A DNA stretch of 50,988 nt from Escherichia phage EC167. Location: sequence record ON185587.1; one strand, given 5' to 3'. The translations under genes and the position numbers were made by a program. Positions 5,876 through 43,266 of this stretch are shown one piece after another. The notes below the pieces were generated by a model. The model searched no databases. It worked only from the letters and a program-made list of their open reading frames with translations, and had not been told where the DNA came from. Position 1 is the stretch's first letter. Every line of letters starts with the position of its first letter.

Positions 5876-5888
5876 TGGAGAAATTATT

Positions 5889-6902: not shown

Positions 6903-6919
6903 CATAAAAACGCTTTGAC

Positions 6920-16608: not shown

Positions 16609-19600
16609 ATGGCTGAAAATATGATAACTGGCAGTAAGGGGGGATCATCAAAACCTTATGTGCCGAAAGAGATGGAAGATAACCTGATCTCAATAAACAA
16701 AATCAAAATCCTTCTTGCCGTTTCCGATGGCGAGTGCGATCCAGATTTCACGCTTCGCGATCTGTATCTTGATGATGTTCCTGTAATTGCAGACGACGGA
16801 ACTGTTAACTACCAGGGTGTGAGCGCAGAGTTTCGCCCAGGTACACAGACTCAAGATTACATCCAGGGATTTACTGACACGTCAAGCGAAGTGACGCTGG
16901 CGCGTGACATTACTACGTCAAATCCTTATGTAATTTCTGTAACCAACAAAACATTATCTGCTATCAGAATAAAAATGCTAATGCCAACAGGCATTAAGCA
17001 AGAGGATAACGGCGATCTTGTCGGCGTTAAGGTTACTTATGCTGTTGATGTGGCTGTTGACGGAGACTCTTACAAAGAAGTATTGCGAGACACTATCGAA
17101 GGTAAAACTCGCTCCGGTTACGACAGAAGCAGAAGGATTGACCTTCCGGCATTTAATGATCGAGTATTACTTAGGGTTAGAAGGGTTACGGCAGACAGCA
17201 CATCTTCTCGTGTTACTGATCTTATTAAGCTACAAAGTTACGCTGAGGTTATTGATGCAAAATTCCGTTATCCTCTGACTGGTCTTGTATACGTTGAATT
17301 TGACAGTGAGTTGTTCCCTAACCAGATCCCTAACATTTCAATCAAGAAGAAATGGAAGTTAATTAATGTTCCGAGCAATTACGATCCGGTAATGCGAGAG
17401 TATCACGGTTCATGGGATGGTACTTTCAAGAAAGCGTGGTCGAACAATCCGGCGTGGGTTCTTTATGACATTATCACAAACCAGCGATACGGATTAGATC
17501 AGCGAGAACTTGGCGTGCAGGTTGACAAATGGAGTCTTTACGAAGCGGCGCAATACTGCGATCAGAAAGTGCCGGATGGAAAAGGCGGTACAGAGCCGCG
17601 TTATCTATGCGACGTTGTGATTCAAAGCCAGATTGAGGCTTATCAGCTTATTCGTGACATTTGCTCTATCTTCCGTGGAATGAGCTTTTGGAATGGAGAG
17701 AGCTTGTCAATAGTTATTGATAAACCACGCGATCCATCTTACATCTTCACAAATGATAACGTTGTTGATGGGGATTTTCAGTATACGACAGCAAGCGAAA
17801 AGAGCATGTACACACAGTGCAACGTGACGTTCGACGACGAGCAAAACATGTATCAGCAGGACGTCGAAGGCGTGTTTGATACTGAGGCAGCACTACGCTT
17901 TGGATACAATCCTACAAGCATAACAGCGATCGGATGTACGCGCAGGAGTGAGGCAAATCGGCGCGGTCGATGGATACTAAAAACCAACTTGCGCAGCACT
18001 ACTGTAAACTTTGCTACTGGCCTGGAAGGGATGATCCCATCAATAGGTGATGTGATTGCTGTTGCTGACAACTTTCACAGCAGCAACCTGAAGTTAAACC
18101 TATCAGGTCGCGTGATGGAGGTTTCCGGTTTGCAGGTGTTCGTTCCGTTTAAGATTGACGCGCGACCAGGTGATTTCATTATCATCAACAAGCCTGACGG
18201 AAAGCCAGTTAAGCGCACAATCTCAAAGGTAAGCGGTGACGGAAAAACCATTGAGTTAAACATTGGGTTTGGATTTGAAGTTAAACCGGACACGGTTTTT
18301 GCAATCGACCGCACTGATATTGCATTGCAGCAATACGTTGTAACGAGTATCGGCAAAGGTGATGATGATGATGATGATGATGAATTTACAACGGCTGTTG
18401 AATATGACCCGAACAAATACGACGAGATTGATTATGGAGTAAACATTGACGACAGGCCAACTTCAATTGTCCAGCCTGACACAATGGCAGCGCCTGAAAA
18501 TGTGCAAATATCCTCCTACTCGCGAATTGTCCAGGGTGCAAGCGTTGAAACAATGGTTGTGTCGTGGGATAAAGTACCTTACGCATCGCTGTATGAAATG
18601 CAGTGGCGAAAAGGTGATGGCAACTGGCTGTATACGCCGCAGACAGCTAACAAAGAGATAGAGGTAGAAGGAATTTATTCAGGGAACTATCAAGTAAGGG
18701 TTAGATCTGTTTCTGCAAGCGGTAACACCTCCCCGTGGTCAAAGATTGCAACCGCCACCCTGATAGGTAAAGTTGGCGAGCCAGGAGCGCCGATTAATCT
18801 TACAGCTTCTGATAATGAAGTTTTTGGCATTCGTGTCAAATGGGGTATGCCGGAAGGATCAGGCGATACGGCTTACATTGAGCTTCACCAATCTCCAGAC
18901 GGAACGGTTGAAAACTCAAGCCTGCTTACGCTGATTCCATATCCTCAATATGAGTATTGGCATAGCACGTTACCAGCGGGTCAAGTTGTATGGTATAGAA
19001 TCCGTAGCGTTGACAGGATCGGCAACGTTTCCGGCTGGACTGACTTTGTTCGCGGCATGGCGTCAGATGATGTTGAATCTGTTTTAGGCGACATTCTGGA
19101 CAAGATTTTTGATACCGAAGCGGGTCAAGAAATCAAAGAGAACGCCATAGACAGTGCAAACAAAATCAAAGACCAGGCGCAATCAATCATCCAGAACGCA
19201 TTGGCAAACGATGCTGATGTGAAGTGGACGCGAGTACAAAACGGAAAGCGTAAGGCTGAATATGGTCATGCACTGGAGCTTATTGCTACCGAAACGGAGG
19301 CGCGCGTAACTCAAATCGAAGAGTTAAGGGCGTCAATTGATAAAGATATAGTTTCAAGTATCAAAACCGTTCAGGAAGCGATTGCCAACGAATCAGAGAC
19401 GCGAGCTACTCAAGTTCAGCAGCTTGATTCTAAATTTACAAAGGAAATAGACGGCGTAAAACGAGATACGGCTGCAAGTATTGGCGAGGTAAGGCAAACC
19501 ATTGCCAATGAATCAGAAGCGCGCGCTCAGGCCGTTCAGCAGCTTGACGCTAAGTTCACGAAAGAGATAAACGACCTTGACGGAGTTATCAAAACAGAAG

Positions 19601-21111: not shown

Positions 21112-21380
21112 TAATTACACCTCAAATCAATAAATTTACTTTCATTTTGCCAACGGTTGATAAATTTAACTTCTTTATTGTTAACGCTCAACCTGTATTG
21201 CTTTTGGCTGAATCTGTTTTCGCGGACCGCATTAATTTTAACTTCATGGAATCCGTTAACAGGGAATGTTTTAACGTTAAATTTTGCCGTGCAATCGATC
21301 TCCTTGAAGTTGCCAGTAGGCGAAGAAGAACATCCGGTCAGAGCGGCTACGGTGGCGATAACTGCGATTAATTTTTTCAT
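21111..21380 (-). CDS. outer-membrane lipoprotein, Cor-like superinfection exclusion candidate
   Basis: Signal peptide MKKLIAVIATVAALTG-C with lipobox; ~89 aa; AAGGAG RBS; location next to tail fiber genes as for cor/llp genes. Confidence 0.55.
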   Translation of the reverse strand: MKKLIAVIATVAALTGCSSSPTGNFKEIDCTAKFNVKTFPVNGFHEVKINAVRENRFSQKQYRLSVNNKEVKFINRWQNESKFIDLRCN

Positions 21381-21386
21381 CTTCAA

Positions 21387-21881
21387 TACTCCTTAGTTGT
21401 TGTTGGCTGTAACTATACACGATCCGGCAAGCCGAGTTTAGCAAAAAGTGCTACTTGTTATTTTTTGTTTTCCAGCGTTATCGAATTTAAGACGGCGCAA
21501 ATTTAGCGCAAATTTTAGACAACATAAGAGCAATAAACAATCAATAAAATAGATACATACATATAAAATCAATAGTTTATTTATTTATGTATGTATATTT
21601 GTTTTTTCTTGTTATCTGTGTTTCTTGTGGTTTTGGTTGTTTGTGGTGATTTTTCTTTCTGAGTATCTGCATGTGCCATCATTCATGTGTATGTATATAA
21701 TCCTGCGTATCTGAGAGAACAAGGGAACAAGAAAAATAACACATGTTAATCATTAACTTACATGTCAGATTTGTTTTCTTGCCATCTGAGAACGTTTAGG
21801 AAACAGAAAAAACAAAACAACTATTGACTAAATCAACCAAATGGCTACAATGCACACACAAAGCAACAAGGAGCATCAAAG
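21387..21881. promoter_or_regulatory. AT-rich non-coding control region 1 (divergent promoters, inverted and tandem repeats)
   Basis: 495 bp without credible ORF; 13-bp inverted repeat TACATACATATAA/TTATGTATGTA, tandem GCGCAAATTT x2, IHF-like AATCAATAGTTTA, GGGAACAAGAAAAA box, TTGACT-17-TACAAT promoter for exo-erf-ssb. Confidence 0.6.
21436..21455 (-). promoter_or_regulatory. conserved intergenic motif variant upstream of Cor-like operon
   Basis: Minus strand reads AGTAGCACTTTTTGCTAAAC followed by GTATAGT. Confidence 0.45.
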
Positions 21882-22937
21882 ATGAGTGATTTTAACGCCT
21901 ACACTAGCGAAGAAATGAGCAATGAGCTTTATCATGATCCTAACGCGTGGACGGCTGAATACGTCAGCGGTTCCAGCCTGGCGGAGATTTACAGCACTTG
22001 CCCGGCGTACTGGAAGTACAAGCCTCGCCAGGAAACCAAAGCACTTGTTTTCGGTACGCAGTCGCATACCAATTTTGAAAGCAAGGAGTTATTCGAAAAA
22101 ACATATCGCCGCGCACCGTCGCAGGATGACTTTAAGGATCTGATAACAAGCCAAACTGCGTTGGCTTCAAAGCTGAAATCTTTTGGCCTGAAAGGCACGA
22201 CTGGTAAGCAGTATCCAGAATTGTTGGAAATGCTGTACAAGTGCGGTGAGGATCTCAATGTATGGTGGCTTATCGAAATGATGGCAGAATGCCAGGCAGC
22301 AGCGGACGGAGTGCAGTTAATCGACGCGAAAGACTATGATGCCTGTGTAGCGATGCGGCGCGTACTTGAGGCAATACCTGAGCATAATGCTTGCATGAAT
22401 AGCCCAACCGCGCAGCGTGAAATGTCAATATTCGGGATCATCAATGGCGTAAAAGTTAAAGTGCGTCTTGATCACGTTGACGTAAACAATGATGTAAAGG
22501 CCACAATCATTAACGGTTACGACGAAAAAGGCCGACCGATTTATGAAGAGGTCATCTATCCAGAAGCTGTGATTATCACTGACTATAAAACAACGGTTAG
22601 CGCAAATCCGGTTGACTTCCAGCGCCTGGCTTACAATCACGGCTATTATCTCAAAATGGCTTTGCAGCATGATTTATTCAAAAAGGCTTATCCAGACGAA
22701 GAAAGACCAGTAATTGTGAGATTGCTTGCTCAAGAGAAGAAAGAGCCTTACTTGCCGCTCGCATTCCGCATGAACATTGAGCAATTGAAGATTGGGCGTA
22801 TCCAGTACATGAGCGTGATCAATAAGTTCAATGTTTGCCAGAAGTTAGATGAATGGCCTTCGTATGCAAACGGACAACCAGAAATTGATCTTGATACTCC
22901 TGATTGGGTGCGCGCTCAATTCAGGCAGTATCTATAA
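21882..22937 (+). CDS. recombination exonuclease (PD-(D/E)XK family)
   Basis: 351 aa; D..D/E..K signature (DHVD...IITDYKT); immediately upstream of Erf-like annealing protein. Confidence 0.55.
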   Translation: MSDFNAYTSEEMSNELYHDPNAWTAEYVSGSSLAEIYSTCPAYWKYKPRQETKALVFGTQSHTNFESKELFEKTYRRAPSQDDFKDLITSQTALASKLKSFGLKGTTGKQYPELLEMLYKCGEDLNVWWLIEMMAECQAAADGVQLIDAKDYDACVAMRRVLEAIPEHNACMNSPTAQREMSIFGIINGVKVKVRLDHVDVNNDVKATIINGYDEKGRPIYEEVIYPEAVIITDYKTTVSANPVDFQRLAYNHGYYLKMALQHDLFKKAYPDEERPVIVRLLAQEKKEPYLPLAFRMNIEQLKIGRIQYMSVINKFNVCQKLDEWPSYANGQPEIDLDTPDWVRAQFRQYL

Positions 22938-28005: not shown

Positions 28006-28482
28006 TTAGCTATTCGTGCTGTTATCACCTTTGTAGAATCGTCCTCCTGGTTCGTAGTCTGAATTTTTGACTACGCGCAACATTTCGTATTTGTCGCAAC
28101 GGGTAGTAAGAGGCTTGCCGTTAGAATCAAACCGCAGATCTGGACGACAAAATGATGCGCGGTATCCTTTGCACCCATTATATTTGTAGTCGTTATGCAC
28201 CTTTTGTGCTCCAGCGGCTGAAATCATGCCACGCTTTCGCCACTGGTTAACGACTTGCTGAGATACGCGTAGACGTCGAGCCATAGCAGGAACACCGCCG
28301 TAATACTCGATCAGAATGTCAAGGCGAGATTTCAGGCTTGCTTTTACCTCATCTCGCAGGATAAGAAATCCGGTTCGGTGTTTTCGTGGCTTTTTGTCTT
28401 TACCTCGTCGCGTTCCGTTGTTACCGTTAATAGTGCGCTTGTCGATCTCACCCGTAGACACTGCAATTCGTGCATCTTTCAT
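28006..28482 (-). CDS. DNA-binding protein with Cro/YdaS-like helix-turn-helix and C-terminal Cys-rich region
   Basis: 158 aa; basic N-terminus, GGVPAMARRLRVSQQVVNQWRKRG HTH-like segment, four Cys in C-terminal 50 aa. Confidence 0.45.
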   Translation of the reverse strand: MKDARIAVSTGEIDKRTINGNNGTRRGKDKKPRKHRTGFLILRDEVKASLKSRLDILIEYYGGVPAMARRLRVSQQVVNQWRKRGMISAAGAQKVHNDYKYNGCKGYRASFCRPDLRFDSNGKPLTTRCDKYEMLRVVKNSDYEPGGRFYKGDNSTNS

Positions 28483-28492
28483 CTAGTCACCT

Positions 28493-28513
28493 CATAGCAT
28501 TTTTTGTTAAAAC
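28493..28513 (+). promoter_or_regulatory. conserved intergenic motif upstream of helicase operon
   Basis: CATAGCATTTTTTGTTAAAAC, then AT-rich TATTATAT; lies in divergent region with HTH gene. Confidence 0.45.
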
Positions 28514-28569
28514 AGTTTATTGTAATGATTCTATTATATACTCCAAATGGCATTTTTTAAAGGTTTAAG

Positions 28570-31002: not shown

Positions 31003-31065
31003 TGGCGCGATGGATTGCGCCATAATTCAATAATACGAGATAGCTTTTAATAGCGGAGAAATGAA

Positions 31066-32072: not shown

Positions 32073-32128
32073 GCCCGGCCTAGTGTCGGGCATAATTATT
32101 TCAACGAAGAAAACATGAGGAAATAAAA

Positions 32129-35912: not shown

Positions 35913-36308
35913 TCATGTGATATTGAATTTACGGCGCAGTGCTTCAAGATCTTGTCTATTAGCTTTTGCCTGGAACAACTCATCATCGCCCATCTCCCCT
36001 ATTCTAGCCATATCCCTGATCCAGACGTTGCGCATACCATCCAGGCTATACAATTCGAATCCGAAAGGCCGCTTTGACGATCCTTTGGACCAGTATTTTC
36101 CGCAGACCCCATCTATATAACCAGCCGTCATCATTCTTGCGCAAAATTCCTTAGATGCAAGGCTGGCGAACATTCTCGGCGTAAGTCCGGCGGCCCGTGC
36201 GAGCCGCTCACATTCTCTATGCTGATAGATAAATTTGGCTATGTGCTGCCTGTTAAACCAGTCGTATGACTCACACCATTTATACAGATCAAGCAAAAAC
36301 ATAATCAT
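35913..36308 (-). CDS. hypothetical protein translationally coupled to DUF3987-like NTPase
   Basis: 131 aa; start ATG overlaps upstream stop (ATGA). Confidence 0.45.
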   Translation of the reverse strand: MIMFLLDLYKWCESYDWFNRQHIAKFIYQHRECERLARAAGLTPRMFASLASKEFCARMMTAGYIDGVCGKYWSKGSSKRPFGFELYSLDGMRNVWIRDMARIGEMGDDELFQAKANRQDLEALRRKFNIT

Positions 36309-38175: not shown

Positions 38176-38683
38176 AAGGCTTCTCGCTTCCGTGGTTTTC
38201 GTGGAATCCGTACTTTTTCCAAATAGCATCTCTTGATGATACAGCGCTATCAATTGATGCATGATAACCACCAGAAATACACCTGCCATCAACAGTTACT
38301 TGTACGCACCATTTAGACACCCTCTTATTCAACATCACGCCAGTATAACCAGATTTATTTGTCGATCTCCTTGTGTGGTTTTGTGAGTTTTGTTTTCTTG
38401 TGACAAGCCGAAGGTTTTCGATTCTATTGTCATCTCTTATGTGATTCACGTGATCTATCTCCATTCCTTTTGGTATTGTTTTTCCATGCATCCACCAAAC
38501 AATCCAATGCGCCGGATACTCTCTGCCACCAATACCTATACGTCTATATCCGTTTTTAGTTATATAACCTGCCTCATCGCCAATTTTTGCCCGTCTTCCT
38601 GATGGGCTTTTCCATAATAGACGACCATTTTCATATATAAATAAATTTAGAAGTACTTGCCTTGAAATTCCGCTATTGCACAT
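38162..38683 (-). CDS. HNH homing endonuclease with AP2 domain
   Basis: HNH motif (HWIVWWMHG..IDHVNH..DNR..NLR) and AP2-like SGYTGV segment. Confidence 0.7.
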   Translation of the reverse strand: MCNSGISRQVLLNLFIYENGRLLWKSPSGRRAKIGDEAGYITKNGYRRIGIGGREYPAHWIVWWMHGKTIPKGMEIDHVNHIRDDNRIENLRLVTRKQNSQNHTRRSTNKSGYTGVMLNKRVSKWCVQVTVDGRCISGGYHASIDSAVSSRDAIWKKYGFHENHGSEKPYDQD

Positions 38684-38874
38684 TTAAATCCAACCTCGCA
38701 TCTTTCAAGAGTCCATTGCTCACCTTGAGCATCAACAACGTAACCAGCTACAGCGCCTAAAACCCTTCCCATAATTATCTCATAGCGTTTACCTTCCTTA
38801 AAATGCTGACCTGGCTTTACGCTGTTCATGTGGTGGTAAACTTTTGTGCATTTTATTGTTCTCTTCTTTGTCAT
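38647..38874 (-). CDS. small protein, paralogue family member A
   Basis: 75 aa; RBS AAGGAG; N-terminal K-C-x-x-x-Y...KPG motif shared with 40884 and 44932 genes. Confidence 0.5.
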   Translation of the reverse strand: MTKKRTIKCTKVYHHMNSVKPGQHFKEGKRYEIIMGRVLGAVAGYVVDAQGEQWTLERCEVGFKCAIAEFQGKYF

Positions 38875-41514: not shown

Positions 41515-41787
41515 TTACTTCTTGATCTCCTCACTGATAAATTTCAGCACCTGACGCAAGAAAACCTCGTTGCTGATAGTCGCTGGCAATTCTTCTTTCA
41601 CTTCTTGCGGCAGATAGATATTGCCGTGCCAGGTCAAGCAATCGTAGTTGATACGATAAGAGCAAAGCAACTCGCAATCGTTATCTCCTTCCCAAATGCA
41701 GAGTTGCAGAACATCGCCAAAATCTTCAACAGTCAGATCCAGACCGTGACGCTTAGCGAAATTGAAAGTGGTTTTGCTGATGTTCAT
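41515..41787 (-). CDS. hypothetical protein, first gene of minus-strand early operon
   Basis: 90 aa; AGGAG RBS; motif-type promoter upstream. Confidence 0.45.
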   Translation of the reverse strand: MNISKTTFNFAKRHGLDLTVEDFGDVLQLCIWEGDNDCELLCSYRINYDCLTWHGNIYLPQEVKEELPATISNEVFLRQVLKFISEEIKK

Positions 41788-42458
41788 TGCTATCTCCTGA
41801 TCGGTTCGTTTTGATGTGTGTAATGTACCCGATCAGGTGGCCTGAGTTTTAACAAAAAGTGCTATTTGACGGTTAGCGCCAGGATTGCGATCGAAATAAT
41901 CATAAGTAATCATTCGTAATCAAATCACGTCAAAATGATGATTGCCTTTGCAAATTTGATGAGAAAAGCAATCACGTTTAATCATTGGTTGCAGGGGAGA
42001 TAGTGAAACCTTCCCCTCTCGCCTCACTTTTTTGCCTGGCTGTCAGTGGTTGTTATGTTCCGTTCCTGCGTGTTCTTTTGTTGACCTTCCGCAAAATACG
42101 ATAACAAAAAATAACAAACAATACCTATATAATACATTGAAAAATAAGGATTATTTATTTATATGTATCTATATATTCTCTTTTGTTATCTTGGTTATTG
42201 TGGTATTTGGTGGGGGTATATAGTTTTTGTGTATCTGTATGTGTGTATGGGTATGTAGGGGTATATATATCTATATGGCGCTTTCCGCGAGAAAACTTCG
42301 ATAACAAGCAATGATAACATTGATTTATAAGGAAAAATAACGCCTATATTGTTATTGTGCCACCATATAAAATTGATAAAACACGCGGGAACAAGAAAAA
42401 ACAGTTGACACATTAAATAGCATTATTGATAATGCCCACACCTAACAACCAGGAGGCA
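41788..42458. promoter_or_regulatory. AT-rich non-coding control region 2 (divergent promoters, iterons, dyads)
   Basis: 671 bp without credible ORF; TAATCAT repeats phased at 10 bp (41897, 41907, 41917) plus further copies; hairpin + U-tract at about 42003-42045; GT-rich repeats homologous to region 1; GGGAACAAGAAAAA box; TTGACA-17-GATAAT promoter for early genes. Confidence 0.6.
41846..41866 (-). promoter_or_regulatory. conserved intergenic motif (minus orientation)
   Basis: Minus strand: AATAGCACTTTTTGTTAAAAC upstream of 41787 gene. Confidence 0.5.
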
Positions 42459-42926
42459 GAAATGAGCGAGCAATCATTCACTGACACGCTGCGCCGTGCC
42501 GCTATTATGCTGGCTAATGGCGAGGAAGAGACGATCAAGATTCCTGACGCGTATTTGCAGGTCCACATGTTCGGCAAGAAGTCGGCAAGCAATCCGGCGG
42601 CCTACATTCGCCAGATCATGAGTCGAGTGCCAGAAGTCGCCGAGCGGGGGCGCGTATCCGTTACCCGTGACGTTTACGGGCCGGAAGATGAAAACTTCGG
42701 TAGCACTTTCTACGAGGTGCGGATTGTTGAAGGCCGTCGCAAGGTTTACAACAAAGAGGCACTGGAAAGGGCAGTGCGCCAGGCTAAGCGCAAGGTTGCA
42801 GAGGCGATCATTGATATGTCACCAAACCTGGCAAACTATGCGCCGGAAGAGTATGAAACGTTATCAAAGGCCGTCGCTGACTTTCACGCGATGATCAAAA
42901 AAACTTTCCTGGAGGATGAACAATGA
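42459..42926 (+). CDS. hypothetical early protein (first gene of plus-strand early operon)
   Basis: 155 aa from ATG 42459 (RBS CAGGAGG); immediately downstream of TTGACA-17-GATAAT promoter. Confidence 0.5.
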   Translation, partial: EMSEQSFTDTLRRAAIMLANGEEETIKIPDAYLQVHMFGKKSASNPAAYIRQIMSRVPEVAERGRVSVTRDVYGPEDENFGSTFYEVRIVEGRRKVYNKEALERAVRQAKRKVAEAIIDMSPNLANYAPEEYETLSKAVADFHAMIKKTFLEDEQ

Positions 42927-43210: not shown

Positions 43211-43266
43211 GCCAGGTGCAAAGCCTGGCATAATAGCCTCATCGAAACGAGATTGAGGAAACAAAA

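What the first reader, a model, noticed from the sequence alone, without database searches (positions are those of the whole stretch)
21387..21881. Long AT-rich non-coding hub 1 with inverted repeats, homologous to hub 2
About 495 bp without a credible ORF lies between the Cor-like operon and the recombination operon. It contains a 13-bp perfect inverted repeat (TACATACATATAA ... TTATGTATGTA), a tandem GCGCAAATTT repeat, an IHF-like site (AATCAATAGTTTA), GT-rich degenerate repeats (TTGTTATCTGTG, TTTCTTGTGG, TTTGTGGTG) and a GGGAACAAGAAAAA box about 60 bp upstream of a TTGACT-17-TACAAT promoter. The GT-rich block and the GGGAACAAGAAAAA box recur in the same order in hub 2 (41788-42458), suggesting a duplicated regulatory module or origin-like element.
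Basis: seen in the sequence. Interest (0 to 1): 0.6.

Follow-up and report, generated by a model that had tools for sequence, protein, structure and literature searches.

The report
Duplicated origin-like module in T1-like phage
This T1-like coliphage carries two copies of a conserved non-coding DNA module of about 370 bp, an easily melted AT core flanked by arrays of short phased repeats next to an early promoter, and it is the best current candidate for the still unidentified replication origins of this phage family.

Summary
Window 21387-21881 is a 495-bp non-coding, 33% GC gap in a complete T1-like (Drexlerviridae, Warwickvirus-like) genome. About 350 bp of it aligns collinearly with hub 2 (21524-21873 vs 42101-42455, 62.5% identity, z = 29 against dinucleotide shuffles), so the similarity is not AT bias.

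Each hub holds the same module:
- the least stable DNA duplex in the genome (hub cores rank 1 and 2 in this phage, T1, TLS and Rtp);
- triplets of short sites spaced 9-11 bp, in both orientations. All 6 such triplets in the 51-kb genome lie in the hubs;
- one of the two best intergenic sigma-70 consensus promoters at the right edge.

The site word differs between lineages (TGTT[A/T/C] here, TGTAAC in T1) but is shared by both hubs of one genome. The hub interior is better conserved than synonymous sites of the neighbouring gene. No ORF or Rfam RNA explains it.

The closest known architecture is satellite phage P4 ori/crr, and the phage encodes a P4 alpha-type primase.

Best reading (about 0.5): paired iteron-plus-unwinding-element replication origins coupled to early transcription. 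Main rival (about 0.3): an early-promoter control complex. The binding protein was not identified and function is untested.

Details to correct: the perfect inverted repeat is 11 bp, the promoter spacer is 16, and the box lies about 90-100 bp upstream of the -35.

The parts
21387..21881 (.). Hub 1: 495-bp non-coding AT-rich gap between the Cor-like operon (minus strand) and exoVIII/Erf/SSB (plus strand)
   Evidence: small ORFs not conserved; no Rfam match
21412..21456 (-). Leftward phage-type promoter: T1-family 21-nt repeat (AAGTAGCACTTTTTGCTAAAC, 21456..21436) plus a -10 TATAGT (21417..21412)
   Evidence: family D5; geometry shared with 15 other copies; repeat described for TLS in PMC11447400
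21456..21481 (+). Arm A: forward triplet TGTTAT / TGTTTT / CGTTAT at 10-bp spacing
   Evidence: aligned with T1 TGTAAC/CGTATA/TGTAAC; 74% complementary to arm C (I2)
21495..21515 (+). Tandem GCGCAAATTT x2. This is the left copy of a GGCG(C/T)AAAT-type box that recurs to the right of the GT block in relatives
21536..21613 (.). AT-rich core with dyad symmetry: 33-nt arms, an 11-bp perfect inverted repeat (21553-21563 / 21586-21596), and the IHF-consensus string at 21567. 21540-21600 is the least stable 60-bp duplex of the whole window
   Evidence: dG -59.1, z 4.5; hairpin z -2.3
21600..21650 (+).
   Evidence: 70% identical to hub 2 42151-42211 (D7)
21716..21741 (-). Arm C: reverse triplet GAACA / GAACA / TAACA. 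It contains the GGGAACAAGAAAAA box (21723-21736)
   Evidence: T1 equivalent is GTTACA/GTTACG/TAGACA
21789..21819 (-). Arm D: reverse sites GAACG / AAACA / AAACA / AAACA, abutting the -35
   Evidence: aligns with the hub-2 GGGAACAAGAAAAA box
21824..21851 (+). Rightward sigma-70 promoter TTGACT-16-TACAAT for exoVIII/Erf/SSB. Nearly invariant in 30 relatives
   Evidence: equivalent to TLS P51
41788..42039 (.). Hub 2, left part, not homologous to hub 1: leftward 21-nt-repeat promoter (41845-41865), an AATCA/TGATT repeat zone (41895-41990) and a hairpin (41993-42017). By position it corresponds to the TLS pac region
42040..42404 (.). Hub 2 module homologous to hub 1: arm A' forward triplet 42051/61/71; reverse pair 42101/42111; core 42125-42185 (second least stable duplex in the window); forward site 42184; reverse sites 42301/42314; arm D' reverse triplet 42378/88/98, which includes the box at 42387-42400
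42405..42433 (+). Rightward sigma-70 promoter TTGACA-17-GATAAT (11 of 12 matches) for the early operon that starts at 42462
   Evidence: equivalent to TLS P01

Best explanation
Each hub contains one copy of a module of about 370 bp that assembles a nucleoprotein complex. I think it most likely acts as a replication origin of the iteron-plus-unwinding-element type, physically coupled to an early sigma-70 promoter.

Proposed mechanism (inferred, not shown):
1. A sequence-specific protein, probably phage-encoded, binds cooperatively to the phased triplets of TGTT-type hexamers (arms A-D). The sites lie on one face of the helix and occur in both orientations.
2. The bent or wrapped complex melts the AT core between arms A and B, helped by negative supercoiling behind RNA polymerase as it leaves the adjacent early promoter.
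3. The phage helicase(s) and the P4-alpha-type primase are then loaded, and host Pol III elongates.

The two copies, 20.6 kb apart, would act as two origins or as an origin plus a cis-acting helper site. P4 ori/crr is a tool-verified precedent; SPP1 oriL/oriR is a precedent from my own knowledge.

Shown: the anatomy, its uniqueness in the genome, its conservation, and the co-evolution of the two copies.

Inferred: protein binding, melting, and initiation of replication at these sites.
For: 1. Hub 1 and hub 2 share a collinear 350-bp homology far above composition-matched chance in this phage (z 29), T1 (z 11.5), TLS (z 16) and Rtp (z 41). Within-genome similarity (scores 63, 35, 38, 83) exceeds similarity between orthologous hubs of this phage and T1 (27, 25). 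That is concerted evolution.

2. In all four genomes the two least stable 60-bp duplex windows of the whole genome are the two hub cores (z 4.5-5.8; third place is at most 3.8).

3. Phased triplets of [TC]GTT[ATC][TC] occur 6 times in the 51-kb window, all inside the hubs. Block-shuffled genomes give 0.1 +/- 0.4. T1 has 7 triplets of its own word, 6 of them in its hubs, in the same order: forward, core, forward, reverse, reverse, promoter.

4. Unbiased k-mer enrichment gives lineage-specific words shared by both hubs of a genome: TTGTTAT, 8 of 22 genome copies (expected 0.3); T1 TGTAACA, 6 of 6; TLS GTGAACA, 4 of 8; Rtp CCGCGGA, 6 of 6. All four phages infect E. coli, so a co-evolving phage factor is more likely than a host factor.

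5. The 367-bp interior between the promoters is more conserved than 4-fold degenerate sites of the adjacent exonuclease gene: 94% vs 77% in L003; 73% (shuffle baseline 52%) vs 42% in L005.

6. A non-coding gap of 240-580 bp precedes the exonuclease gene in the great majority of 43 relatives, down to 57% protein identity (the remaining, larger values reflect my simple ORF call on genomes without a leftward gene). TLS keeps the whole module although it has no leftward gene there, so the module is not just a divergent-promoter spacer.

7. The annotated P4 record shows the same design: all 11 genome copies of TGTTCACC lie in ori and crr, as a triplet and pairs at 9-11 bp in both orientations. An AT-rich stretch sits between inverted copies, and ori lies between divergent genes.

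8. The window primase is homologous to the P4 alpha primase domain (E 1e-16).

9. No origin has been identified for T1-like phages (PMC11447400, PMC7718038).
Against: - No experiment or replication-related signal is available. GC skew follows transcription direction only.
- No origin-binding initiator was found. The P4 alpha iteron-binding C-terminal domain is not detectable in this phage. The only recognisable sequence-specific DNA binder is a Cro/YdaS-like HTH protein, and it fits the 21-nt repeats better. The winged-helix prediction for the helicase C-terminus is weak (best Foldseek E 0.08) and its putative recognition helix is hydrophobic.
- The hubs coincide exactly with the two best intergenic sigma-70 promoters, and arm D touches the -35. 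A pure promoter-control function explains this more simply, and it also explains why there are two copies.
- In T1 hub 2, TGTAAC sites overlap the promoter like operators.
- The degenerate site patterns were defined after looking at the data.
- There are no GATC clusters or DnaA boxes.
Confidence: 0.5

Rival explanations
1. The module is purely an early-promoter control region. It is an upstream array of operator or enhancer sites for a phage regulator that switches the two strong sigma-70 early promoters off (or boosts them). The inverted arms are brought together by DNA looping, and the flexible AT core forms the apex of the loop, as in a repressosome. Replication starts elsewhere.
For: - The hubs sit exactly at the two best intergenic sigma-70 consensus promoters of the genome.
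- Arm D abuts the -35 in both hubs.
- In T1 hub 2 an inverted TGTAAC pair overlaps the promoter.
- Arms A/C and B/D are inverted copies 190-260 bp apart (I2 and I11).
- Two regulated promoters explain naturally why there are two co-evolving copies.
Against: - Twelve or more sites spread over 370 bp, plus a core that is consistently the least stable DNA in four genomes, is more than known promoter control needs.
- Arm A and the core are kept in TLS about 350 bp from the only promoter there.
- The design matches the experimentally annotated P4 ori/crr.
Confidence: 0.3
2. The triplets are binding sites for a host OmpR/PhoB-family response regulator (ArcA-P, OmpR, PhoP, CpxR or TorR type). This would tie early transcription or initiation to host physiology.
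For: ArcA-P sites are commonly three direct repeats of TGTTA-like pentamers on one helical face. The natural icdA site uses TGTTA / TGTAA / TGTCA, the same variants seen in the hubs (PMC4173790).
Against: - Hub spacing is mostly 9-10 bp, whereas ArcA-P needs 11 bp and fails with one extra base pair.
- Position 5 is A in only a minority of sites, and the 3' flank is T-rich rather than A-rich.
- The site word changes in concert between phage lineages that all infect E. coli.
Confidence: 0.07
3. The module serves DNA packaging or recombination, for example as a packaging enhancer or a hotspot for recombination between hubs, because hub 2 also holds the pac region.
For: - TLS pac maps to the left part of its hub 2.
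- Mosaic breakpoints lie inside hub 2 when this phage is compared with tonijn.
Against: - The pac-like zone (41880-42040) is not part of the sequence shared with hub 1.
- Hub 1 has no counterpart of the pac-zone AATCA/TGATT repeat array: its only related word, AATCAATA, occurs twice in the core.
- Terminase sites would not need a copy 20 kb from pac.
Confidence: 0.05
4. The similarity is a neutral relic of an old duplication, or a by-product of AT-rich composition, or the region encodes small proteins or a non-coding RNA.
For: - Some GenBank relatives annotate 29-44 aa ORFs in the gap.
- The region has low-complexity AT/GT composition.
Against: - The alignment score is 29 sd above dinucleotide shuffles.
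- The interior is more conserved than synonymous sites.
- The ORFs carry stop codons in relatives.
- No Rfam family matches, apart from one AT-driven sub-threshold hit to Plasmodium RNase P.
- The interior lies between outward-facing promoters, and its only internal promoter-like string is not conserved.
Confidence: 0.03

Closest known systems
Satellite phage P4 bipartite origin (ori + crr) with type 1 iterons TGTTCACC bound by the alpha primase-helicase
   Same: - Short repeats with a TGTT(CAC) core occur nowhere else in the genome.
- They are clustered as triplets and pairs at 9-11-bp spacing in both orientations.
- An AT-rich stretch lies between inverted copies.
- A second cis element kilobases away carries the same repeats.
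- ori lies in a non-coding region between divergently transcribed genes (annotated record NC_001609).
- The T1-like phage encodes a homologue of the alpha primase domain.
- TLS-lineage hub words (TGTTCAC) share 7 of the 8 bases of the P4 iteron.
   Different: - No detectable homologue of the alpha helicase or its C-terminal iteron-binding domain.
- The sites here are more degenerate hexamers.
- The two copies are whole homologous modules of about 350 bp, each with its own AT core and promoter. P4 instead has an origin plus a repeat-only helper.
- The AT core is far more extreme here (z 4.5-5.8, against 2.2 in P4).
- Function here is untested.
Two-origin pac phage SPP1 (oriL/oriR bound by G38P) and iteron-plus-AT-rich origins such as lambda ori and SaPI ori (from my own knowledge, not checked with the tools)
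   Same: One initiator recognises repeated boxes next to an AT-rich unwinding region at two distant places in a headful-packaging siphovirus genome. Iterons flank or adjoin the unwinding element.
   Different: The SPP1 and lambda origins lie inside genes. Their repeat lengths and initiator families differ. No homologous initiator is recognisable in this phage.
Multi-repeat operator arrays of OmpR/PhoB-family regulators, e.g. three-repeat ArcA-P sites
   Same: Three direct repeats of TGTTA/TGTAA/TGTCA-like words on one helical face, next to or overlapping a promoter (PMC4173790).
   Different: Spacing is 9-10 bp instead of a strict 11. The flanks differ. The words are lineage-specific. There are four arrays per module plus an AT core. 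No such regulator is encoded by the phage.
T1-family 21-nt direct repeats (aaATAGCACnnnTTGnTAAAA) described for TLS
   Same: One copy, oriented with the leftward gene, forms the left edge of each hub.
   Different: This is a separate, genome-wide, promoter-associated element (15-17 copies). It is not part of the module shared by the two hubs.

Membership tests
Iteron-type replication origin (P4 ori/crr-like) | Clusters of a short repeated word essentially confined to the locus | tested here: met
   TTGTTAT: 8 of 22 genome copies lie in the hubs (expected 0.3). All 6 phased triplets of the degenerate site lie in the hubs, against 0.1 +/- 0.4 in shuffles. T1: TGTAACA 6 of 6.
Iteron-type replication origin (P4 ori/crr-like) | Repeats phased at about one helical turn, in direct and inverted orientation | tested here: met
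   Gaps between neighbouring same-strand sites are mostly 9-11 bp. Autocorrelation peaks at 8-11 and 20 bp across 15 relatives. Order along the module: forward, forward, reverse, reverse.
Iteron-type replication origin (P4 ori/crr-like) | Adjacent AT-rich DNA unwinding element | tested here: met
   The hub cores are the two least stable 60-bp duplexes in each of four genomes. This shows thermodynamic propensity only; melting itself was not shown.
Iteron-type replication origin (P4 ori/crr-like) | A second cis-acting locus carrying the same repeats | tested here: met
   Hub 2 module 42040-42404.
Iteron-type replication origin (P4 ori/crr-like) | A cognate initiator with an iteron-binding domain is encoded | tested here: not met
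   Only the primase domain of P4 alpha has a homologue. There is no alpha helicase or Pox_D5 C-terminal domain. No other DNA-binding domain was found in about 30 ORFs scanned, apart from the Cro-like HTH. A binder of unknown family is not excluded.
Iteron-type replication origin (P4 ori/crr-like) | Replication initiates at the locus | not testable with these tools
   Needs marker-frequency sequencing, 2D gels or a plasmid amplification assay.
ArcA-P (OmpR/PhoB-type) multi-repeat operator | TGTTA repeats with 11-bp centre-to-centre spacing and an A-rich 3' flank | tested here: not met
   Spacing is 10/10, 10/9, 8/12, 11/9, 10/10 and 10/10. Position 5 is A in a minority of sites. The flank is T-rich (one search compared with PMC4173790).
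IHF binding site | WATCAANNNNTTR core, conserved in position | tested here: inconclusive
   AATCAATAGTTTA (21567) fits the core. It is kept in near relatives but absent at the aligned position in hub 2 and in T1-group hubs.
Sigma-70 early promoter | Near-consensus -35 and -10 at 16-18 bp spacing, intergenic, conserved | tested here: met
   21824 TTGACT-16-TACAAT (10/12) and 42405 TTGACA-17-GATAAT (11/12). Nearly invariant in 30 relatives. Listed as P51 and P01 for TLS. No transcription start site data.
T1-family 21-nt direct repeat | aaATAGCACnnnTTGnTAAAA, in the direction of transcription, upstream of a start codon | tested here: met
   Reverse-strand copies at 21436-21456 and 41845-41865 precede the leftward genes.
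Structured non-coding RNA (Rfam) or small protein genes | A covariance-model match, or a conserved open reading frame | tested here: not met
   No Rfam match at gathering threshold or at E <= 1, except a Plasmodium RNase P artefact at 24.9 bits against a threshold of 100. The ORFs are interrupted in relatives.

The most novel reading that the evidence does not exclude
The two hubs are the long-sought replication origins of T1-like (Drexlerviridae) phages. On this reading they form a co-evolving pair of modules, each with an unwinding core flanked by four arrays of three phased hexamers. The hexamers are read by a still unannotated phage protein of a new initiator family. Each module is wired to one of the only strong host-type early promoters, so that early transcription licenses initiation.
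Probability: 0.4. Interest if true: 0.7.

Novelty: new member of a known kind. Interest (0 to 1): 0.55.

Why it matters
T1 is one of the seven classical T phages, and Drexlerviridae are among the commonest coliphages in sewage, gut samples and laboratory contaminations. The papers I could search state that the family's origin of replication has not been found (PMC11447400, PMC7718038).

The analysis gives two precise, testable candidate loci, each with a defined core and defined site arrays. It shows that they are conserved and co-evolve across the family. It also links them to the P4 ori/crr design and to the phage's P4-type primase.

If confirmed, the result would:
- locate the origins;
- point to an unknown initiator or regulator among the many unannotated early proteins;
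- explain why these intergenic regions are recombination junctions between phage modules;
- show which non-coding DNA must be kept when engineering T1-like phages.

If the module proves to be only a promoter-control region, it still defines the early-to-late switch elements of the family.

Tried and rejected
- Rfam at gathering and E-value thresholds, and tRNA search: nothing.
- Small ORFs in the gap: not conserved.
- Cruciform or hairpin at the core: modest dyad symmetry in this phage (z -2.3 and -2.6) but none in T1, so it is not a family feature.
- Internal promoter GTGCCA-17-TATAAT at 21673: not conserved in relatives.
- GATC clustering or DnaA boxes as in oriC: absent. The module interiors contain no GATC although the genome has 5.8 per kb.
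- GC skew: tracks gene orientation only.
- Identifying the binder:
  - The recognition helix of the Cro/YdaS-like HTH protein varies between lineages, but not in step with the site word. TLS-type and window-type helices differ strongly yet both go with TGTT sites.
  - The placement of that HTH gene fits the 21-nt repeats instead.
  - The C-terminus of the DUF3987 helicase is predicted as a winged helix, but only weakly, and it is highly conserved between lineages.
  - Two conserved basic small proteins (35913-36308 and 38647-38874) have no PDB or Pfam relatives.
- Searching for hub-2 relatives through the downstream gene failed because that gene is variable.
- No similar DNA in plasmids or E. 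coli genomes.
- Literature searches for T1-family transcriptomes or origin mapping found nothing relevant. The search for the string TGTTCACC was uninformative; the P4 iteron was instead verified from the annotated P4 record.
Full report
**Context.** The window is an essentially complete genome of a T1-like siphovirus. It is 95-98% identical over the hubs to Escherichia phages brachmannus, tonijn, BEK7, vB_EcoS-95 and tiwna. Tonijn is classified as Drexlerviridae; Tempevirinae; Warwickvirus. Hub 1 (21387-21881) lies between a minus-strand Cor-like lipoprotein gene and the plus-strand exoVIII-Erf-SSB genes. Hub 2 (41788-42461) lies between a leftward operon that contains a DUF3987 helicase and a rightward operon of small early genes.

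**Checking the observation.** The gap is 495 bp at 32.7% GC, against 44.2% for the genome. Its 31-44-aa ORFs have TTG or ATG starts and low-complexity products, and stop codons interrupt them in relatives whose exonuclease is 75-80% identical. There is no Rfam or tRNA match.

Four details need correcting:
- The perfect inverted repeat is 11 bp (21553-21563 / 21586-21596), inside 33-nt arms that are 76% complementary.
- The promoter spacer is 16.
- The box is about 90-100 bp, not 60, from the -35.
- The IHF-consensus string is not conserved at the equivalent position in hub 2 or in T1.

**Is the hub 1 / hub 2 similarity more than AT bias?** Yes. A local alignment covers 21524-21873 against 42101-42455: 365 columns, 62.5% identity, few gaps, score 63. 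Two hundred dinucleotide-preserving shuffles give 13.1 +/- 1.7, with a maximum of 19. The same test is significant within T1 (z 11.5), TLS (z 16) and Rtp (z 41). The two hubs of one genome resemble each other more (scores 63, 35, 38, 83) than orthologous hubs of this phage and T1 do (27 and 25). The copies therefore evolve in concert.

In the collinear alignment the two GGGAACAAGAAAAA boxes do not pair with each other. Each is one instance of a repeated site type.

Only the right 420 bp of hub 2 is homologous to hub 1. By position, the left 250 bp corresponds to the pac region of TLS. The TLS paper places pac about 5,882 bp from a HindIII site, and the only nearby HindIII site is at 5876. That puts pac at base 1 of the record, inside the TLS hub-2 equivalent. 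The T1, TLS and Rtp records all begin inside that gap.

**Anatomy of the shared module.** Reading left to right in hub 1:
1. A leftward promoter made of the T1-family 21-nt repeat plus a -10.
2. Arm A, three forward sites TGTTAT/TGTTTT/CGTTAT at 10-bp spacing (21456-21481).
3. Tandem GCGCAAATTT.
4. An AT core with dyad symmetry (21536-21613).
6. Arm C, three reverse sites (21716, 21724, 21736), including the box.
7. Arm D, three to four reverse sites (21789-21819), touching the -35.
8. TTGACT-16-TACAAT.

Hub 2 has a forward triplet at 42051/61/71, a reverse pair at 42101/11, the core at 42125-42185, a forward site at 42184, reverse sites at 42301/14, a reverse triplet at 42378/88/98 and TTGACA-17-GATAAT.

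T1 shows the same order of arms but with a different word, TGTAAC/TGTATA/TGTCTA and their complements, at 9-10-bp spacing. TLS keeps the full module upstream of its exonuclease gene even though no leftward gene exists there.

**Statistics on the sites.**
- Unbiased k-mer counts show lineage-specific words concentrated in both hubs. TTGTTAT: 8 of 22 genome copies (0.3 expected). T1 TGTAACA: 6 of 6. TLS GTGAACA: 4 of 8. Rtp CCGCGGA: 6 of 6.
- With the degenerate pattern [TC]GTT[ATC][TC], the hubs hold 30.5 sites per kb against 8.4 elsewhere. Shuffled hubs give 7.0 +/- 2.7 sites against 28 observed.
- Triplets of same-strand sites 8-12 bp apart occur six times in the genome, all in the hubs. Composition-preserving block shuffles give 0.1 +/- 0.4. 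In T1, six of seven triplets are in hubs.
- Word autocorrelation over 15 diverse hub-1 sequences peaks at 8-11 and 20 bp.

The degenerate patterns were chosen after inspecting the data, so the exact numbers are optimistic. The k-mer results are not affected by that choice.

**The core.** Using nearest-neighbour duplex energies, the two least stable 60-bp windows of the whole genome are the hub cores in this phage (21540 and 42125, z 4.5). The same holds in T1, TLS and Rtp (z 5.0-5.8), with a clear gap to third place. In this phage both cores also have more dyad symmetry than shuffles (z -2.3 and -2.6). T1 does not show this.

**Conservation.** A non-coding gap of 240-580 bp precedes the exonuclease gene in the great majority of 43 relatives, down to 57% protein identity. 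The remaining, larger values reflect my simple ORF call on genomes without a leftward gene. The rightward promoter is nearly invariant.

The 367-bp interior between the two promoters is more conserved than 4-fold degenerate sites of the adjacent gene. In L003 it is 94% against 77%. In L005 it is 73%, with a shuffle baseline of 52%, against 42%.

At aligned positions the TGT/ACA cores of the sites are the conserved columns, and the flanking bases switch together between lineages.

Against tonijn, the pac-side 260 bp of hub 2 is 98% identical and the AT core nearly identical. The arms and the right side, including the first early gene, are replaced. The replacement still carries phased TGTT triplets.

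**Promoters.** The only intergenic matches of at least 10 of 12 to the sigma-70 consensus are at 21824 and 42405, plus weaker candidates at 6915 and 50152. The TLS authors list three intergenic sigma-70 promoters: P01 in hub 2, P51 in hub 1, and P57 upstream of the HTH-primase operon. So each hub carries one of the early promoters. Most other operons carry the 21-nt repeat instead of a -35.

**What is it?** Coding, RNA and neutral-relic explanations are excluded by the results above. What remains is a DNA-level assembly site for a sequence-specific protein. All four phages compared infect E. coli, yet the word differs between them and is shared by both hubs of one genome. A co-evolving phage factor is therefore the most economical assumption.

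Two functions fit: a replication origin, or an early-promoter control complex.

For the origin:
- The combination of phased short repeats in both orientations, an extreme unwinding-prone core, and a second distant copy is the textbook origin design.
- It matches in detail the experimentally annotated origin of satellite phage P4. There, all 11 genome copies of TGTTCACC lie in ori and crr, as a triplet (9310/9320/9331) and as pairs at 9-10 bp in both orientations.
- In P4 an AT-rich stretch lies between inverted copies, and ori lies between divergent genes.
- The window primase is homologous to the P4 alpha primase domain (24% identity, E 1e-16).
- The TLS-lineage word TGTTCAC shares seven of the eight bases of the P4 iteron.
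- No origin is known for the family.

For promoter control:
- The perfect association with the two early promoters.
- Arm D touches the -35.
- Operator-like sites overlap the T1 hub-2 promoter.

The two functions are not exclusive, since transcription-activated origins are common. I commit to an origin coupled to the early promoter at about 0.5, and to pure promoter control at about 0.3.

**The binder.** I could not identify it.
- The only recognisable sequence-specific DNA-binding protein is a Cro/YdaS-like HTH protein (28482..28006), co-transcribed with the primase.
- Its recognition helix varies between lineages, but not in step with the hub word.
- A 21-nt repeat sits in its own leader, which suggests that it is the autoregulated activator of the 21-nt-repeat promoters instead.
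- The DUF3987 helicase is not similar to P4 alpha by BLASTP.
- The helicase's C-terminal 85 residues are predicted as a winged helix (pLDDT 78). Foldseek matches are weak (best E 0.08), and the domain is conserved across lineages.
- Other small conserved basic proteins gave no hits.

**Host response regulator sites.** These were considered because three-repeat ArcA-P sites use TGTTA/TGTAA/TGTCA. Hub spacing is 9-10 bp rather than the strict 11, and the flanks differ, so this remains a minor rival.

**Novelty and interest.** Within the literature I could search, these modules have not been described for T1-like phages. The TLS paper discusses only the 21-nt repeats and states that no origin-like repeats were found. 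The kind of element (iterons plus an unwinding element, or a multi-operator promoter region) is well known, so I rate it a new member of a known kind. Its interest lies in making the open question of the T1-family origin directly testable at two defined loci.

Noticed in passing
window, 15 strict copies, e.g. 30983, 32053, 43191, 43654, 44859, 46068, 47570 (+); 38949, 41865, 35795 (-): The T1-family 21-nt repeat (ATAGCAC-N5-GnTAAAA, with an internal dyad TAGCA-N5-TGyTA) sits at a fixed distance from a -10-like hexamer. In 11-12 copies the hexamer starts exactly 38 nt after the A of ATAGCAC. The repeat therefore covers about -50 to -30, with its dyad centred near -42, and there is no -35. This is the geometry of a class II activator-dependent promoter. 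The TLS paper lists the function of the repeat as an open question.
   Followed up: partly
window 28483-28569 and gene 28482..28006 (-): The Cro/YdaS-like HTH gene, first in the operon with the primase, has its own TTTAAA-17-TATAAT promoter. The 21-nt repeat of the divergent helicase promoter lies inside its 5' leader. This arrangement fits an autoregulated activator that binds the 21-nt repeats.
   Followed up: partly
window 41880-42040: The left part of hub 2 carries AATCA/TGATT repeats (41895-41990) and a hairpin (41993-42017). By position it corresponds to the restriction-mapped pac site of TLS, and the T1, TLS and Rtp records all start there. It is probably the packaging initiation region of this phage.
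   Followed up: partly
window 42004-42105 (+): A possible 33-codon ORF (GTG start, GGGGAG 5 nt upstream) encodes MKPSPLASLFCLAVSGC..., which has a lipobox-like VSGC. The N-terminal part lies in the stretch that is 98% conserved with tonijn, but T1 has no equivalent. It is probably spurious.
   Followed up: no
window 42048-42461 compared with L128 (tonijn) 1289-1990: There is a mosaic junction inside hub 2. The pac side is 98% identical and the AT core nearly identical. The arms, the promoter side and the first early gene are replaced by a different allele that still has phased TGTT triplets. Many relatives match only the first 63% of the hub-2 query.
   Followed up: partly
records MG065643, MG065649, MG065657 and others, found with window 21300-21950 and 41700-42520: About 20 GenBank records named 'Campylobacter phage' (49,946 bp, host C. 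jejuni) match both hubs at about 72% identity. They look like T1-like coliphages, so the host assignment is doubtful.
   Followed up: no
whole window; hub interiors 21422-21881 and 41890-42461: GATC is very frequent (294 sites, 5.8 per kb), consistent with the phage Dam methylase. It is absent from the roughly 1 kb of hub module interiors.
   Followed up: partly
window 31003-31022, 32073-32091, 43211-43229: GC-rich hairpins with compensatory differences between copies (GGCGCG/GCGCC, GCCCGG/CGGGC, GCCAGG/CCTGGC) lie between the 21-nt repeat and the -10, inside the promoter spacer. They may be overlapping terminator and promoter elements.
   Followed up: no
window 19376-19588: A 93-nt direct repeat (71% identity, 120-bp period) lies inside the 1192-aa tail tip (J-like) gene, in its coiled-coil-like ANESE(A/T)RA region.
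   Followed up: no
window 21494-21515 and about 21700-21712; hub 2 42086-42100 and 42275-42299; Rtp hubs: A second conserved box of the type (G/C)CGC(G/A)AAAT flanks the core-plus-GT block on both sides, about 200 bp apart and in the same orientation. In Rtp it appears as the palindrome TCCGCGGA, and all 6 genome copies of the 7-mer CCGCGGA lie in the hubs. It may be the site of a second factor.
   Followed up: partly
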